Source: Chiloscyllium plagiosum (Eukaryota). Taken from it: 64,000 nucleotides of DNA. The stretch's first letter is position 1. Every line of letters starts with the position of its first letter. Shown one piece after another: positions 3,592 to 60,543 of this stretch. Under the pieces are notes generated by a model, which saw nothing but the letters and a program-made list of their open reading frames with translations, did not search any database and had not been told where the DNA came from. The position numbers and the translations under genes are program-made. The DNA is taken from the NCBI RefSeq assembly GCF_004010195.1, contig NC_057749.1, positions 5,807,339 to 5,871,338 on the forward strand, given 5' to 3'.

Positions 3592-4451
3592 TGAAATAAA
3601 TGCACAGAGGCTTGCATCTCATCACTAAGTCACTCTTTATGTCAATGTACACAGTGCATGTACTCTGACCAGCCAGCTCAAATCCATCCTAGACTGAGAG
3701 GCTTTCTCAATCTCCTGTTTATTTTTTTTAATTCCTCCACACTACCGCCCAACTGCAGTAGTGCTTATATTTTCCCCAGCACCCATGTTGTATTTGTGCA
3801 GGTGTGTGACGCAGTGAAAGACACAAGGTGTACAAATCTTTATTCAATTTCCACCACCAAGAAGAAAGAAAACACCCAAGTGGCCAGTGACAAGCAGTGC
3901 CTTTCTCAGAGGGCAATGCTGTGTGATCAAACAGTGAAGGGGAGGGCAGGGATTAAATCAAAATAGAGTTGGAAGGGGAATCTTTTGTTTATTTATTTAT
4001 TTTTCTTATTATTTTAAGTGGCCAGTGACAAGCACTGTCCTTCGCATCAAAGGGCAATGCTGTGTGAATCTCCTGGTTATATTTTTTTTTCCCCACACTA
4101 CCGCCTAACTGCGGTAGTGCTTATTTTTTCCCCAGCACCCATGGTGTGTGTGTGCAGGTGTGAGACACAGTGAGAGACACAAAGTGCACAAATCTTTATT
4201 CAATTTCCACCACCAGGAAGATAGGAAAACACCCGAGTGGCCAGTGACAAGCACTGCCATTCACATCAAAGGGCAGTGCTGTGTGATCAAAACAGTGAAG
4301 GGGAGGGCAGGGATTAAATCAAAATAGAGTTGGAGGGGGAATCTTCTGTTTATATCTGTCAGCCAGGCACCCTGATTGGCCCAGGCTAACAACCCCAATC
4401 AAGGATCTCATAGTCAATGAGATCCACCTGAACCTGAATTCAATCACTATA
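3592..4451 (-). mobile_element. Solo LTR interrupted at its TATA box by stacked retroposon insertions
   Basis: The minus strand shows a CCAAT box (GGCCAATC), GATATAAACAG and a terminal ...TTATTTCA. The right part is homologous to 50985-51086, 59624-59708 and 60268-60420. Confidence 0.65.
3723..4339 (-). mobile_element. Three tandem insertions (3723-3978, 3993-4066, 4081-4339) of a short poly(A)-tailed retroposon, possibly the 3' end of a Tx1-like non-LTR element
   Basis: Each copy is bounded by a roughly 14-bp repeat AATCTCCTGTTTAT (3709, 3979, 4067, 4340). The two long copies have a minus-strand AATAAA, a terminal hairpin CACTACCGC-ctaact-GCGGTAGTG and an A-rich tail. Confidence 0.7.
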
Positions 4452-5149: not shown

Positions 5150-5478
5150 ATCATAGAATTCCTACAGTGTGGGAGAAAACCATTCGGTCCATCAAGTCCA
5201 CACTAATCCTGTGAAGAGCATCCACCCACACCCATCCCTCTACCCTATCCCTGTAACTCTGTATACCCAAATGCTAAGCCATGTAGCCTGCACATCCCTG
5301 GACATCCTTGGGCAATTTAGCATGGCCAATCCACCTAACCTGCATCCAGTGGAAACCCATGCAGACATAGGGAGAATGTGTAAAGTTCAAACAGATAGTT
5401 GCCTGAGGGTGGAATCAAACTTAGGTCTCTGCTGCTGTGGGGCGGCAATGCTTACCACTGAGCCACCATGCCACCCCA
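5150..5478 (-). mobile_element. HE1-like SINE
   Basis: Reverse-complement head (...ACCACTGAGCCACCATGCCACCCC) and V-domain. Confidence 0.85.
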
Positions 5479-5684
5479 TGGATGGGGGTCTGGAATGCAC
5501 TGCCCAGGAGGGTAGTTGAGGTTGGGAAACTCACAACCTTTTGAAAAGTACTTGGATGAGCACTTGAAATATCATAATCTTCAAGACTAACAAGCCATTT
5601 GGTTCAACAAGTCCACACCTCCAAAGAATAACCCACCCAGACACATTCTCCTACCCTATCACTTTACATTTACCTTTAACTAAC

Positions 5685-5720
5685 ATTCCTGAAGAAGGGC
5701 TTATGCCCGAAACGTCGATT
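5685..5720 (+). ncRNA. Minimal type-I hammerhead ribozyme motif (Penelope-associated)
   Basis: CTGAAGA-A-GGGC-TTAT-GCCC-GAA-ACGT-C: both core boxes, a 4-bp stem II, a palindromic ACGT in place of stem III, and a GUC cleavage triplet. Confidence 0.7.
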
Positions 5721-5777
5721 CTCCTGTTCCCTGGATGCTGCCTGACCTGCTGCGCTTTTCCAGCAACACATTTTCAG
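5686..5777 (+). mobile_element. Penelope-like terminal fragment (family A)
   Basis: 12-bp TSD CTTTAACTAACA (5674-5685 / 5778-5789). Same sequence as the 3' end of the RT-bearing copy at 19798-20846. Confidence 0.85.
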
Positions 5778-6397
5778 CTTTAACTAACACACCTAACCTA
5801 CACAACCCTGAACACTATGGGCAATTTAGCATAGCCAATTCACCTGACTTGCACATCTTTAAAGTGTGGGAGGAAGCCGGTGCACTCGGAGGAAATGCGC
5901 ACGGACACGGAAGAATGGACAAAGTTCACACAGATGGTCATCCAAAGCTGGGATTGAACCAGGGTCCCTGGTGCAGGGAGGCAGCAGTGCTAACCACTGA
6001 ACCACCATGCCACCCCATAAGTGGTGGAGACTGATACAATTACAGTATTTAAAAAAACATCTGGATGAGTTTATAATAGGAAGGGTTCAGAAGAATATGG
6101 GCCAGGTGCTGGTAAATGGGAATACTTCAGAATATCTGTTTCCCTGCTGTACATATCTATGACTCTATGACTATGGGCCATGTGTTATAAAGTGGGACTA
6201 GTGTAGATTTGGCGATACAGACTTGGTGGACCAAAGGACCTCTGCTGCCCTGTATGATTCTATTATTTCATACTCAAGGGGAGCAATGGTCCTCAAGGGG
6301 AGCAATGGTGTATTGGTAGTGTCACTAGGTTAGTAATCCAGAACCCCAGTCTGGTGTTCTGGAGACATAGATTCAAATCCCATCATAGGAAAGTTTG

Positions 6398-50613: not shown

Positions 50614-51086
50614 TGTAAAGAGTGCAGTGGCGTCTATTGTTCCTGGCACTAGATTAGTCCCCTCACTAACACAAAATGGAGAGTCCTTCACTGATCCAGC
50701 TCCCTCACGGCCGGTTCGCAGGGTGGGTACAACCTCTGACACTCCTGTTTATGTTTTTGTTTTCTTTCTACTTTTTTACCCTGCACTACCGCCTAACTGC
50801 GGTAGTGCTTATATTGTCCCCAGCACCCATGATGTGTGTGTGCAGGCGTGAGATACAGTGAAAGACAACAGGCGTACAAATCTTTAATCATTTTCCACCA
50901 CCAGGAAGAAAGGAAACACCCGAGTGGCCAGTGACAAGCAGTGCCCTTCTCAAAAGGTAATGCTACTGTGTCTCTGCTGTTTATATCTGTCAGCCAGGGA
51001 TCCCTGATAGGACTGGATTAACAGCCCCAATCAGAGAACTTATATTCAATGAGGTCCACCTGACTGAGCCCGTTACCATCGCTACA
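50614..51086 (-). mobile_element. Solo LTR (related to 3592-4451) interrupted at its TATA box
   Basis: Ends ...ATCGCTACA, with a CCAAT/TATA region homologous to 4350-4451. The left end is approximate. Confidence 0.6.
50753..50971 (-). mobile_element. Fourth copy of the short poly(A)-tailed retroposon
   Basis: Same body as 4081-4285, flanked by CTCCTGTTTAT and CTGCTGTTTAT. Confidence 0.75.
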
Positions 51087-59545: not shown

Positions 59546-60543
59546 TGAATGGTGGAATGGGATCAAAAGGCTGAATACCCTACAACAAATTATGTTTTCA
59601 GATTGCTATACTTATACAAATATGTCAGCCAGGGCTCCCTGATTGGCTCAGGTTAACAATCAAGGATCTTTTGTCAATAAGATCCACCTGGCCCTGGCTC
59701 CAATCACAGAATTGCATTTCAAACAAGATGATTAAGTGGCTGCAAAGTATCATTTAGACATTCTAAGGATGTGAATGTTGCTATACAAATGCCAGGCCAA
59801 GTCCAAAAGGAAGCTAGATTGTGCTATGGTCTGGAAAGCCAGGGTGAAGGATGGAACTGCTTTAGCATAGTCGTTTTGTCACCTTGGATCGATGGCTCAG
59901 AGATAGTTGGGAATATTATAAGTTTAATATCATTTTTATAAGCAAACATACAGTATCACTGATGCACATTTGAAGACACCTCAGTTGTCTTCAATTATAT
60001 GCAGATGGAAGGTAGTTTTGAGCTTTTACTTGAGCAAAAATGAAATTACAGTGGGGTTGAGCTCTGAGATGTAAGCATGTACAAATAAATACATATACAA
60101 TAGGTTTAATGTTGGATCCAGTTCTATCCTTCACCTTGGCTTTCCAGACCAGCACTGTCTAGCTTCCTTTATGACTTTGCCTTGCATTTGTATAGCAACT
60201 TTCACATCCTTAGAATGTCTAAATAACACTTTACAGCCACTTAATCATTTTGTTTAAAATGCAATGCTGTGATTGGAGCTAGGGCCAGGTGGACCTTATT
60301 GACTATGAGATCCTTGATTGTGGTTGTTAACTTGGGCCAATCAGGGAGCCTGGCTGACTGGTATAAACAGGAGTCTCAGAAGGTCTCCTTAGTTTAGGAA
60401 CTGGCTCTGAGCTGGTTGGTCTGATTAGTTATCTTGGATAACTAATGGTAAGGTCAGCAGAAGAGAGAGTATTCAAGGCCTCGTCCTCTAACTTTTCATC
60501 TAAAAGACAACAACACTAACAATGAGACTTGCCATCCAAGCTG
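59269..60543. repeat. Nested inverted duplication
   Basis: Outer arms 59269-59346 / 60466-60543 and inner arms 59624-59859 / 60119-60358. Confidence 0.88.
60268..60421 (+). mobile_element. LTR fragment of the 3592/50614 family with an uninterrupted TATA site
   Basis: GGCCAATCAGGGAGCCTGGCTGACTGGTATAAACAGGAG is continuous here. Confidence 0.7.

What the first reader, a model, noticed from the sequence alone, without database searches (positions are those of the whole stretch)
3709..4353. Sequence-specific retroposon that targets the TATA box of an LTR family (three insertions stacked at one site)
Seen in sequence: a solo LTR is cut at its TATA region (minus strand GAT-ATAAACAGGAGATT). The roughly 14-bp target AATCTCCTGTTTAT recurs four times (3709, 3979, 4067, 4340), separating three copies of a minus-strand element with an A-rich tail. 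The two long copies also carry AATAAA and a 9-bp terminal hairpin, and they begin with a frame ending SPSNSILI-stop, resembling an ORF2 C-terminus plus 3'UTR. Established: Tx1-clade non-LTR retrotransposons are often sequence-specific, and Xenopus Tx1L inserts into another transposon. Inference: this is a Tx1-like element, or a non-autonomous derivative, that parasitises an LTR retrotransposon promoter. Each insertion regenerates the target, places the LTR's CCAAT/TATA promoter immediately upstream of the insert in the sense orientation, and probably disables the host LTR. The Tx1 assignment rests only on my recollection of the short C-terminal peptide. I do not know of a description of this target.
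Basis: partly seen in the sequence, partly recalled or inferred. Interest (0 to 1): 0.85.

Follow-up and report, generated by a model that had tools for sequence, protein, structure and literature searches.

The report
Tx1-type LINE targeting an LTR TATA box
A jumping gene of the Tx1 family has inserted three times at one short sequence at the TATA box of a small LTR repeat, and does so across this genome, adding a target to a family already known for site-specific insertion.

Summary
On the minus strand of window 3592-4451 lies a ~235-bp solo LTR. It is split after its TATA motif (ATAAACAGGAGATT) by three stacked retroposed units, each with an A-rich tail and each followed by a copy of the 14-bp target. 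The units are 5'-truncated 3' ends of a LINE. Longer genomic copies carry an APE endonuclease, a reverse transcriptase and a weak Cys-His tail. The EN-RT part is 53% identical over 752 residues to the Xenopus Tx1 ORF2 protein. Target preference is genome-wide. LTR halves flank the LINE cluster, always in the same orientation, in 14 of 30 loci sampled by LINE 3' end. Of 28 LTR copies sampled by their U3 half, 10 carry a retroposed insert at exactly this point: 5 LINE, 5 other poly(A) retrocopies. The two long window copies are independent insertions of different age, not a tandem duplication. A second occupied LTR lies at window 50679-51086. The kind is known: Tx1-clade elements are often site-specific, and Kojima 2015 reports two crocodilian Tx1 families that prefer LTR retrotransposons. 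Use of the LTR promoter by the LINE remains untested. I rate this a new member of a known kind, of moderate interest.

The parts
4354..4451 (-). Host solo LTR, 5' (U3-like) part. It starts TATAGTGATTG and holds CCAAT (GGCCAATCAG) and the start of the TATA motif.
   Evidence: Own-genome matches cover window 4452-4340 only. It aligns with 18 uninterrupted copies and matches the natural LTR half F1up at 87%.
4340..4353 (-). Target copy T1 (ATAAACAGAAGATT), the 5' target-site duplication of copy A; it belongs to the LTR TATA motif.
4081..4339 (-). LINE copy A: the last 8 codons of ORF2 plus stop (4316-4314), the 3'UTR and the tail (4090-4081). It is young, with 1 private non-tail substitution.
   Evidence: Best genomic copies are 94-97% identical. 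It matches natural LINE copy L032 positions 6058-6308 at 96.8%. Private-difference count.
4250..4280 (-). Hairpin 1 of the 3'UTR (12-bp stem), the core of segment S. S also forms the 5' terminus of full-length copies.
   Evidence: (I7) and fold. The S duplication is seen as double matches, ref 484-553 and 6113-6180.
4096..4119 (-). Hairpin 2, the terminal 9-10-bp stem just before the tail.
   Evidence: (I1).
4067..4080 (-). Target copy T2 (ATAACCAGGAGATT).
3993..4066 (-). Mini-unit: 50 nt of segment S (4066-4017) followed directly by an A-rich tail (4016-3993).
   Evidence: It matches LINE ref 6113-6164 and 490-540. Similar S-plus-tail units occur in L012, L013 and L023.
3979..3992 (-). Target copy T3 (ATAAACAAAAGATT).
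3723..3978 (-). LINE copy B: the same 5' truncation point as A, but old (32 non-majority alignment columns, about 24 outside the tail, most absent from all 48 compared copies). Tail at 3734-3723.
   Evidence: 89% identity to the LINE ref; A-B identity 87.8%; no shared private variants.
3709..3722 (-). Target copy T4 (ATAAACAGGAGATT), continuous with the rest of the LTR.
   Evidence: the same string stands in uninterrupted LTR copies.
3592..3708 (-). Host solo LTR, 3' (R/U5-like) part. It holds an ATAAAG signal and ends ...TTTATTTCA.
   Evidence: Own-genome matches cover window 3722-3592 only; F1dn match at 78%.
50679..51086 (-). Second, independent case in the window. An LTR of a sister subfamily is split at the same point. 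5' duplication ATAAACAGCAGAGA at 50984-50971; LINE 3' fragment plus tail at about 50970-50753; 3' duplication ATAAACAGGAGTGT at 50752-50739.
60269..60424 (+). Uninterrupted (empty) copy of the host LTR, with an intact target ATAAACAGGAGTCT at 60363-60376.

Best explanation
Window 3709-4353 is a stack of three independent target-primed reverse-transcription events. They were made by a Tx1-clade, APE-endonuclease LINE at one preferred site: the TATA motif ATAAACAGGAGATT of a ~235-bp LTR family.

Proposed mechanism, inferred from the junctions and from what is established for Tx1L and L1:
1. The element's endonuclease recognises a short asymmetric motif (core AAACAGGAG) and nicks the bottom strand at the A/T-rich 5' edge.
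2. The T-rich 3'-OH primes cDNA synthesis on the A-rich RNA tail.
3. The top strand is cut 13-14 bp downstream, after GATT.
4. The target is therefore duplicated on both sides of each insert. Each event leaves two usable targets, so inserts pile up head to tail in one orientation.
5. Most cDNAs are heavily 5'-truncated, so most copies are only the ORF2 end plus 3'UTR.
6. The machinery also accepts other polyadenylated RNAs, which land at the same site.

Shown here: the LINE's identity, the target preference, the duplications, the fixed orientation, and the independence of copies A and B.
Inferred: the nick positions, the endonuclease as the specificity determinant, and any role of the LTR promoter.
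For: 1. LINE identity.
- Natural copies L032 and L063 carry Exo_endo_phos and RVT_1, and L031 gives a weak zf-RVT hit. A weak CCHC knuckle lies in the ORF1 region.
- P0005 is 53% identical over 752 aa to Tx1 ORF2.

2. Copies are LINE ends.
- 29 of 30 fetched loci extend further 5' than the window copies, with scattered truncation points running into ORF2.

3. Target preference, LINE side.
- 43 of 66 3' ends in 30 loci have AAACAGGAG (up to 1 mismatch) within 140 nt after the 3'UTR. Controls give 197/5000 and 345/4888 random windows. The 66 ends are not independent, because stacks contribute several each.
- LTR halves flank the LINE cluster in 14 of 30 loci, and all 14 are in the same orientation as the LINE.

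4. Target preference, host side.
- 28 LTR copies were chosen only by U3 similarity. 18 are empty. 5 carry this LINE directly after ATAAACAGGAGATT, with five different truncation points. 5 carry other A-tailed retrocopies with the same duplication.
- In L047 the local variant AAGAG is present on both sides of the insert.
- Two of the foreign inserts have exactly one other genomic match, at 97% and 89% identity.

5. Contigs of a DNA run show 15 listed joints (32 more not shown) from the LTR target to many different LINE positions.

6. A and B are independent insertions.
- A has 1 private non-tail substitution. B differs from the majority at 32 columns, about 24 outside the tail, and most of these variants occur in none of the 48 compared copies.
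- Every variant A and B share is also present in at least 7 of those 48 copies.

7. Off-LTR insertions at look-alike motifs: for example L004, with duplication AAACAGCAGTTAAG in a non-LTR flank.

8. Established knowledge: Tx1L endonuclease nicks its target sequence-specifically (Repanas et al. 2007, PMC1950540, passages read, citing Christensen et al. 2000).
Against: - Specificity is a preference, not absolute. Several copies sit at unrelated sites with ordinary duplications (L029 CCCTCGTAGG, L028, L010, L024). In 16 of 30 loci no LTR half was found within the 3.2 kb held.
- The duplications flanking the young copy A differ at 2 of 14 positions (T1 against T2), more than its age predicts.
- The variant AACCAGGAG recurs at 3' junctions in different loci (window, L005, L017, L019). 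In L008 a target copy lies inside the tail, upstream of the real duplication. Part of the downstream 'target' can therefore be carried in from the source copy's read-through transcript.
- Some arrays look amplified as tandem DNA repeats rather than by repeated insertion: L019 has five units at a ~118-bp period with one shared truncation point.
- Only 40 of 1155 and 40 of 5256 first-look candidates were scored. The samples are the best-scoring copies, not a random draw.
- No RT tree was built.
Confidence: 0.88

Rival explanations
1. The array arose from one insertion, followed by tandem duplication (unequal crossing-over or slippage) of the unit 'insert plus target'.
For: A and B share the same 5' truncation point. 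Elsewhere, L019 shows five units with one truncation point, one target variant and a ~118-bp period, which does look like DNA-level amplification.
Against: A-B identity is only 87.8%, while A is up to 94.6% identical to its best genomic relatives in the same alignment (96-97% by BLAST). A has 1 private non-tail substitution against about 24 non-tail differences in B. They share no private variant. The middle unit has a different structure. The shared start point also recurs within 6 nt in unrelated loci (L024, L036). Microhomology between the GATT end of the target and ATTT in the LINE could explain that (inference).
Confidence: 0.04
2. This is an ordinary L1-like LINE with only the usual A/T-rich nick preference. 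The association with the LTR is a by-product of the TATA box being A/T-rich and the LTR being abundant.
For: The duplication begins with an A/T-rich stretch like L1 targets. Some copies lie at unrelated sites.
Against: The first look found 5256 candidate LTR copies of about 235 bp, which is roughly 0.03% of 3.56 Gb. Yet 14 of 30 LINE clusters lie in them, at one nucleotide position and in one orientation. 10 of 28 LTRs are hit at that same position. The conserved part of the flank is CAGGAG, not the A/T run.
Confidence: 0.03
3. An LTR retrotransposon that had captured a LINE fragment in its LTR was itself amplified, spreading one composite LTR.
For: The host is multicopy, and inserts are always in one orientation.
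Against: The junctions differ. Truncation points are at ref 5799, 6062, 6096, 6113 and 6236 in five LTRs. At least 15 distinct joints are listed in DNA contigs. Tails differ in length, and foreign retrocopies occur at the same point. Duplications flank every insert. 18 of 28 LTRs are empty.
Confidence: 0.02
4. The window units belong to a distinct non-autonomous (SINE-like) derivative of the LINE rather than to truncated LINE copies.
For: Most sampled copies are under 400 bp. 5' ends cluster loosely 110-135 bp upstream of the stop codon. S-plus-tail mini-units recur.
Against: No separate head sequence is present. 5' ends form a smear from 0 to more than 1.7 kb that runs continuously into ORF2. 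The window copies match full-length natural copies colinearly.
Confidence: 0.03

Closest known systems
Tx1L of Xenopus laevis (inserts into the DNA transposon Tx1D)
   Same: Closest named protein: 53% identity over 752 aa of EN-RT. Both are APE-type LINEs that insert at one sequence inside another transposable element. Tx1L endonuclease is sequence-specific in vitro (PMC1950540, passages read).
   Different: The host of the target is an LTR, not a piggyBac-type DNA transposon. The target sequence is different. Here the preference is partial, and foreign poly(A) RNAs are co-inserted.
Tx1-8_Crp and Tx1-4_AMi (crocodilian Tx1 families; Kojima 2015, PMC4494074, section 15 read)
   Same: [quoted passage not shown] This is the same class of target.
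   Different: The main text gives no position within the LTR element, and the supplementary figures could not be read. Whether those families hit a TATA box, and whether they are close relatives of this element, is unknown. They come from a different vertebrate lineage.
Other target-specific Tx1 lineages: Keno (U2 snRNA genes), Kibi/Koshi (microsatellites), Tx1-Mar (Mariner-N4_AMi), Tx1-9_AMi (Harbinger)
   Same: The same clade-wide habit of choosing multicopy, harmless targets. Stacked insertions and co-mobilised small RNAs or SINEs were described for Tx1-Mar (PMC4494074, sections 3, 14, 15 and passages).
   Different: The targets differ. None of the listed targets is a promoter element of an LTR.
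Human/mouse L1
   Same: APE endonuclease plus RT. A/T-rich first nick, 5' truncation, 13-14-bp duplications, and trans-mobilisation of poly(A) RNAs into processed pseudogenes (established knowledge).
   Different: Much lower similarity (214 bits). L1 has no extended sequence motif. Here the retrocopies are funnelled to one site.
R2/R1 in rDNA
   Same: Site-specific elements that rely on co-transcription with the target and can carry target sequence in their RNA (discussed in PMC4494074, section 20). The L008 copy with a target copy inside its tail suggests read-through of this kind.
   Different: R2 uses a restriction-like endonuclease. The targets are rRNA genes, not another retroelement's promoter.

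Membership tests
Tx1 clade of non-LTR retrotransposons | ORF2 with an N-terminal APE-type endonuclease followed by a reverse transcriptase | tested here: met
   PF03372 (E 1.1e-6) and PF00078 (E 9.7e-33) on P0005 from natural copy L063. The same domains are found on pieces of L032.
Tx1 clade of non-LTR retrotransposons | EN-RT sequence closer to Tx1L than to L1 proper | tested here: met
   400/752 (53%) identity to YTX2_XENLA (856 bits). Human L1 ORF2p gives 214 bits, E 3.2e-62. These are pairwise scores only.
Tx1 clade of non-LTR retrotransposons | RT-domain phylogeny grouping with Tx1, Keno, Kibi and Koshi (RTclass1-type test) | not tested
Tx1 clade of non-LTR retrotransposons | C-terminal Cys-His motif after the RT | tested here: inconclusive
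   zf-RVT scores 22.6 bits, below the 27.5 cut-off, on P0002. A CxxC...H...C pattern is visible in the translation.
Tx1 clade of non-LTR retrotransposons | ORF1 with a CCHC zinc knuckle | tested here: inconclusive
   zf-CCHC scores 19.9 bits, below the 20.8 cut-off, on L063:1856-2542. The ORF1 region is broken by frameshifts and a 42-base N run.
Target-specific LINE (Kojima 2015 working criterion: one type of sequence in more than 20% of flanks) | The same target in more than 20% of flanks | tested here: met
   LTR halves flank 14 of 30 LINE loci. The motif follows 43 of 66 3' ends. The criterion is quoted from PMC4494074, section 6.
LTR of an LTR retrotransposon or endogenous retrovirus (the host repeat) | TG...CA termini with the order CCAAT/TATA, then poly(A) signal | tested here: met
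   Seen in the window copy and in the 18 aligned natural copies.
LTR of an LTR retrotransposon or endogenous retrovirus (the host repeat) | Short (4-6 bp) target-site duplication at solo copies | tested here: inconclusive
   Read by eye from the 18 copies aligned. Exact 5-bp duplications occur in 3 (L043 GGACT, L058 TTACC, L039 ATTAC). One-mismatch or one-gap pairs occur in 3 more (L059, L056, L054). The rest are unclear, and the copies are 10-25% diverged.
LTR of an LTR retrotransposon or endogenous retrovirus (the host repeat) | Paired LTRs around an internal region with PBS, PPT and gag-pol | tested here: not met
   0 of 28 sampled copies has a shared internal flank, so all look solo.
SINE or non-autonomous partner of the LINE | Own head or promoter and a defined 5' end, sharing only the LINE tail | tested here: not met
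   5' ends are scattered and continue colinearly into ORF2.

The most novel reading that the evidence does not exclude
The element may have given up, or never had, a promoter of its own. By inserting 13-14 bp behind a CCAAT/TATA promoter, always in sense, it would borrow the LTR's promoter. The ~70-nt hairpin segment S stands both at the 5' terminus and in the 3'UTR. It would let the reverse transcriptase jump between RNAs and rebuild or extend 5' ends lost to downstream transcription starts. As a side effect, cellular mRNA retrocopies would be delivered behind a ready-made promoter, making a site-specific generator of potentially expressed retrocopies. My data do not exclude this: the orientation is always sense, all seven 5'UTR-bearing copies begin with S or with '3' part-S', and foreign retrocopies do sit at the site. 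None of it is shown.
Probability: 0.15. Interest if true: 0.75.

Novelty: new member of a known kind. Interest (0 to 1): 0.45.

Why it matters
It adds a well-documented case to the Tx1 clade's list of chosen targets. The data give nucleotide-level junctions, an occupancy estimate (10 of 28 sampled LTRs) and evidence that the same machinery places unrelated poly(A) RNAs at one defined site. A short asymmetric motif recognised by an APE-type endonuclease is useful material for studying how these enzymes gain specificity. It is also relevant to site-directed insertion tools. The placement just behind a promoter gives a testable idea of how one retroelement can live off another's regulatory sequence. 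For genome annotation, it explains a recurrent class of 'LTR interrupted by A-rich arrays' and warns that such arrays mix repeated insertion with tandem amplification.

Tried and rejected
- RNA evidence. No listed holder of L063:640-1660 is on record as RNA.
  - I laid two raw-read poly(A) single-cell RNA runs, one presumed-RNA contig run and one DNA contig run on L063:600-1660.
  - X19 gave 767 reads. Nearly all lie on the LINE 3' part (786-1008), with depth up to 534 on one strand. Depth is about 0-1 on the 5'UTR and ORF1 start.
  - No place was reported where molecules begin. 450 reads run on at 1008 into the ordinary 3'UTR, so they come from ordinary 3' ends elsewhere in the genome.
  - X20 laid nothing. 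The library is 3'-biased and can be primed on genomic A-rich tails. It therefore says nothing about LTR-initiated transcripts.
- Supplementary figures of Kojima 2015, which would show where Tx1-8_Crp and Tx1-4_AMi sit in LTR elements, could not be read.
- Earlier findings of this scan: none by sequence or by place.
- Literature. Searches for Tx1 with shark and retrotransposon (6 papers, listing only), and for non-LTR retrotransposon with TATA box, LTR and target-specific (34 papers, 15 listed, listing only), gave no description of this target.
- Intact copy. The 1436-aa 'open frame' at G000:C21 proved to be inflated by a 1739-base N run. L032 and L063 both have frameshifts in the endonuclease region. 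I found no fully intact ORF2, so I make no claim about current activity.
- Parent of the host LTR. No pair of LTR hits within 10 kb appears in the lists, and all sampled copies are solo.
The host-side census therefore rests on the U3-half sample only.
- The idea that the insert is a constitutive LTR segment was rejected.
Full report
**What is in the window**

I read the region on the minus strand. It runs in this order:
- LTR 5' part (4451-4354), holding GGCCAATCAG and GATAT.
- Target copy T1, ATAAACAGAAGATT (4353-4340).
- Copy A (4339-4081).
- Target copy T2, ATAACCAGGAGATT (4080-4067).
- A 50-nt fragment plus A-rich tail (4066-3993).
- Target copy T3, ATAAACAAAAGATT (3992-3979).
- Copy B (3978-3723).
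- Target copy T4, ATAAACAGGAGATT (3722-3709).
- LTR 3' part (3708-3592).

The 14-mer has 8 matches at up to 2 mismatches in the 64-kb window, against 1.02 expected. None of 100 shuffles reaches 8. Four of the eight matches are the array. Two of the others turned out to be further copies of the same LTR target, described below. Copies A and B each carry three features:
- the last codons of an ORF (SPSNSILI-stop);
- an AATAAA;
- a 12-bp hairpin and a terminal 9-10-bp hairpin.

**The inserted element is a LINE**

- An own-genome search with copy A gave 1155 first-look candidates. The 40 that were scored are 94-97% identical.
- In the 30 loci fetched, 29 copies extend further 5' than the window copies. 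Their start points are scattered.
- The upstream sequence translates as the C-terminus of a LINE ORF2, ending ...LAKLAINRSRQRAVEGV...GVECIISPSNSILI*, preceded by a CxxC...H...C motif.
- Two long natural copies were fetched. Their pieces hit RVT_1 and Exo_endo_phos. They also give weak zf-RVT and zf-CCHC hits.
- An 847-aa EN-RT stretch of L063 (P0005) finds UniProt YTX2_XENLA, 'Transposon TX1 uncharacterized 149 kDa protein', at E 7.5e-252. Identity is 400/752, or 53%.
- Human L1 ORF2p scores only 214 bits.
- Among the listed hits, one of the highest identities (64% over 58% of the query) is to LINE sequence embedded in a stingray gene model. Many turtle proteins are 50-58% identical.
- I built no tree, so clade membership rests on pairwise similarity and domain order.
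- Both long copies have frameshifts in the endonuclease region. The long 'open frames' are partly artefacts of N runs. I make no claim about present activity.

**The host is an LTR-like repeat**

- Searches with the two halves of the host show that homology stops at window 4452 and 3592. That defines a repeat of about 235 bp, with 5256 and 1249 first-look candidates for the two halves.
- One place, G000:C2:6394734-6394967, matches both halves contiguously. It is an empty site.
- In 18 aligned natural copies the repeat starts TGTAGTG and ends TTTCA. The order is CCAAT, TATA, then AATAAA.
- Exact 5-bp flanking duplications are seen in 3 of the 18 copies, and near-exact ones in 3 more (read by eye).
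- All 28 sampled copies look solo. The parent element was not found, so 'LTR' is the best reading but not proven.
- A sister subfamily has the target variant AAACAGGAGTGT and the same 3' end architecture. It is hit in the same way.

**Target preference**

From the LINE side:
- 43 of 66 3' ends in the 30 loci are followed within 140 nt by AAACAGGAG (up to 1 mismatch). Random windows give 3.9% and 7.1%.
- LTR halves flank the LINE cluster in 14 of 30 loci, and in all 14 they share the LINE's orientation.

From the host side, 28 LTR copies were picked only by similarity of the U3 half:

| State at the target site | Copies | Loci |
|---|---|---|
| Uninterrupted | 18 | |
| This LINE directly after ATAAACAGGAGATT | 5 | L036, L045, L048, L051, L055 |
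| Other A-tailed retrocopies at the same nucleotide, with the same 12-14-bp duplication | 5 | L035, L038, L042, L047, L060 |

- The five LINE inserts have five different truncation points.
- In L047 a local variant of the target is present on both sides of the insert, so the flanking repeat is a true duplication of the site.
- Two of the foreign inserts each have exactly one other match in the genome, at 97% and 89% identity. They look like retrocopies of single-copy transcripts.
- A third foreign insert belongs to a repeat family with 1747 first-look candidates.
- Contigs of a DNA run, possibly the sample the assembly came from, show 15 listed joints from the LTR target to different LINE positions, with 32 more not shown.
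- The LTRs make up roughly 0.03% of the genome, so the enrichment is very large.

The preference is not absolute:
- Copies at unrelated sites exist (L029, L028, L010, L024).
- Some insertions lie at look-alike motifs outside LTRs. L004, for example, has the duplication AAACAGCAGTTAAG.
- This points to a short motif, rather than the whole LTR, as the thing recognised.

**Stacking or duplication**

- A and B are 87.8% identical.
- Against 48 genomic copies, A has 1 private non-tail substitution. B differs from the majority at 32 alignment columns, about 24 of them outside the tail. Most of these B variants occur in none of the 48 copies.
- Every variant that A and B share is also present in at least 7 of the 48 copies.
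- They are therefore separate insertions of different age, with B older and A recent.
- Their common start point recurs within 6 nt in L024 and L036. Microhomology between the GATT end of the target and ATTT in the LINE may explain this (inference).
- Some other arrays do look amplified as DNA. L019 has five units with a ~118-bp period and one shared truncation point.

**Further cases in the window**

- At 50679-51086 (minus strand) an LTR of the sister subfamily is split at the same point by a LINE 3' fragment. The duplications are ATAAACAGCAGAGA and ATAAACAGGAGTGT.
- At 60269-60424 (plus strand) there is an empty LTR with an intact target.
- At 59620-59707 (minus strand) an LTR 5' part breaks off at the TATA region, with no recognisable insert.

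**Mechanism**

The junctions fit target-primed reverse transcription with three steps:
1. A first nick on the bottom strand at the 5' edge of (A)TAAAC.
2. Priming on an A-rich tail.
3. A top-strand cut 13-14 bp downstream, after GATT.

This regenerates the motif on both sides and fixes the orientation. That the endonuclease carries the specificity is inferred from Tx1L, whose endonuclease nicks its target specifically (PMC1950540, passages read). Foreign poly(A) retrocopies at the same site show that the specificity lies in the protein-DNA step, not in pairing between LINE RNA and target.

Two observations suggest that read-through transcripts carrying the downstream target also take part. The variant AACCAGGAG recurs at 3' junctions in several loci. 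In L008 a target copy lies inside the tail, upstream of the real duplication.

**An unexpected structural feature**

- In all seven copies that contain the 5'UTR (L063, L032, L007, L021, L015, L028, L019), the 5'UTR is preceded seamlessly by segment S.
- S is the ~70-nt hairpin-bearing part of the 3'UTR.
- In six of the seven, S is itself preceded by a variable length of ORF2 end. In L032 the copy starts at S.
- S is thus a terminal direct repeat. The variable extensions are best explained by template switching at S (inference).
- The window's middle unit, and similar units in L012, L013 and L023, consist of S followed directly by a tail. I have no settled explanation for these.

**Comparison with what is known**

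- Tx1-clade elements are known for target preference: Tx1L in Tx1D, Keno in U2 genes, Kibi and Koshi in microsatellites, Tx1-Mar in a Mariner element, and Tx1-9_AMi in Harbinger elements.
- Kojima 2015 states that Tx1-8_Crp and Tx1-4_AMi prefer specific groups of LTR retrotransposons (PMC4494074, sections 3, 6 and 15 read). Its supplementary figures could not be read, so I cannot say whether the position is the same.
- Four full-text searches found no description of a LINE aimed at an LTR TATA box. Searches were followed by reading passages of two papers. Searches were read as listings only. The library does not include Repbase Reports.
- I therefore rate this a new member of a known kind.
- The promoter-borrowing idea is attractive but untested. 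The only RNA data available were 3'-biased and uninformative.

Noticed in passing
window 50679-51086 (-): A second LTR, of a sister subfamily, is split at the same TATA-motif position by a 5'-truncated copy of the same LINE, with flanking duplications.
   Followed up: yes
window 60269-60424 (+) and 59620-59707 (-): The first is an uninterrupted copy of the host LTR with an intact target. The second is an LTR 5' part that breaks off right at the TATA region, with unrelated sequence after it and no tail.
   Followed up: partly
L063:940-1010; L032 about 6049-6118 (- strand); L007, L021, L015, L028, L019: The ~70-nt hairpin segment S of the 3'UTR also forms the 5' terminus of full-length copies. 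It is often preceded by a variable piece of ORF2 end joined seamlessly at S, which suggests template switching.
   Followed up: partly
L035, L038, L042, L047, L060: Non-LINE poly(A) retrocopies are inserted at exactly the LINE's target in the LTR, with the same duplication. Two have a single other genomic match. One belongs to a ~230-bp repeat family.
   Followed up: partly
L008 (oriented) about 1746-1830: This LINE copy has a tail containing AAACAGGAGTGT followed by more A's. The real duplication (GGAAACAGGCCAT) lies further on, so it looks like 3' transduction of the source copy's target.
   Followed up: no
L019 (oriented) 70-593: Five units of the last ~73 nt of the LINE plus tail plus target, at a ~118-bp period. 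All have the same truncation point and the target variant AACCAGGAGAGT, so this is probably tandem amplification of one insertion.
   Followed up: no
L027 (oriented) about 1457-1790: An LTR variant lacking the ATAAACAGGAG motif carries a LINE at the equivalent position, with duplication AGATTAGATCCT. This hints that flanking LTR sequence may add to recognition.
   Followed up: no
L063:5717-7455 and 1664-1705: N runs inside a LINE copy inflate the 'open_frame_aa' values of the protein search.
   Followed up: yes
runs X2-X14: Runs labelled with four other organisms hold 7-14% of the sampled 31-mers of L063:640-1660. This is about the share the LINE 3' part makes up, so near-identical LINE ends may exist in related species.
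   Followed up: no
window 5160-5900: Two partial direct repeats about 410-510 bp apart (families D7-D13), belonging to another interspersed repeat.
   Followed up: no
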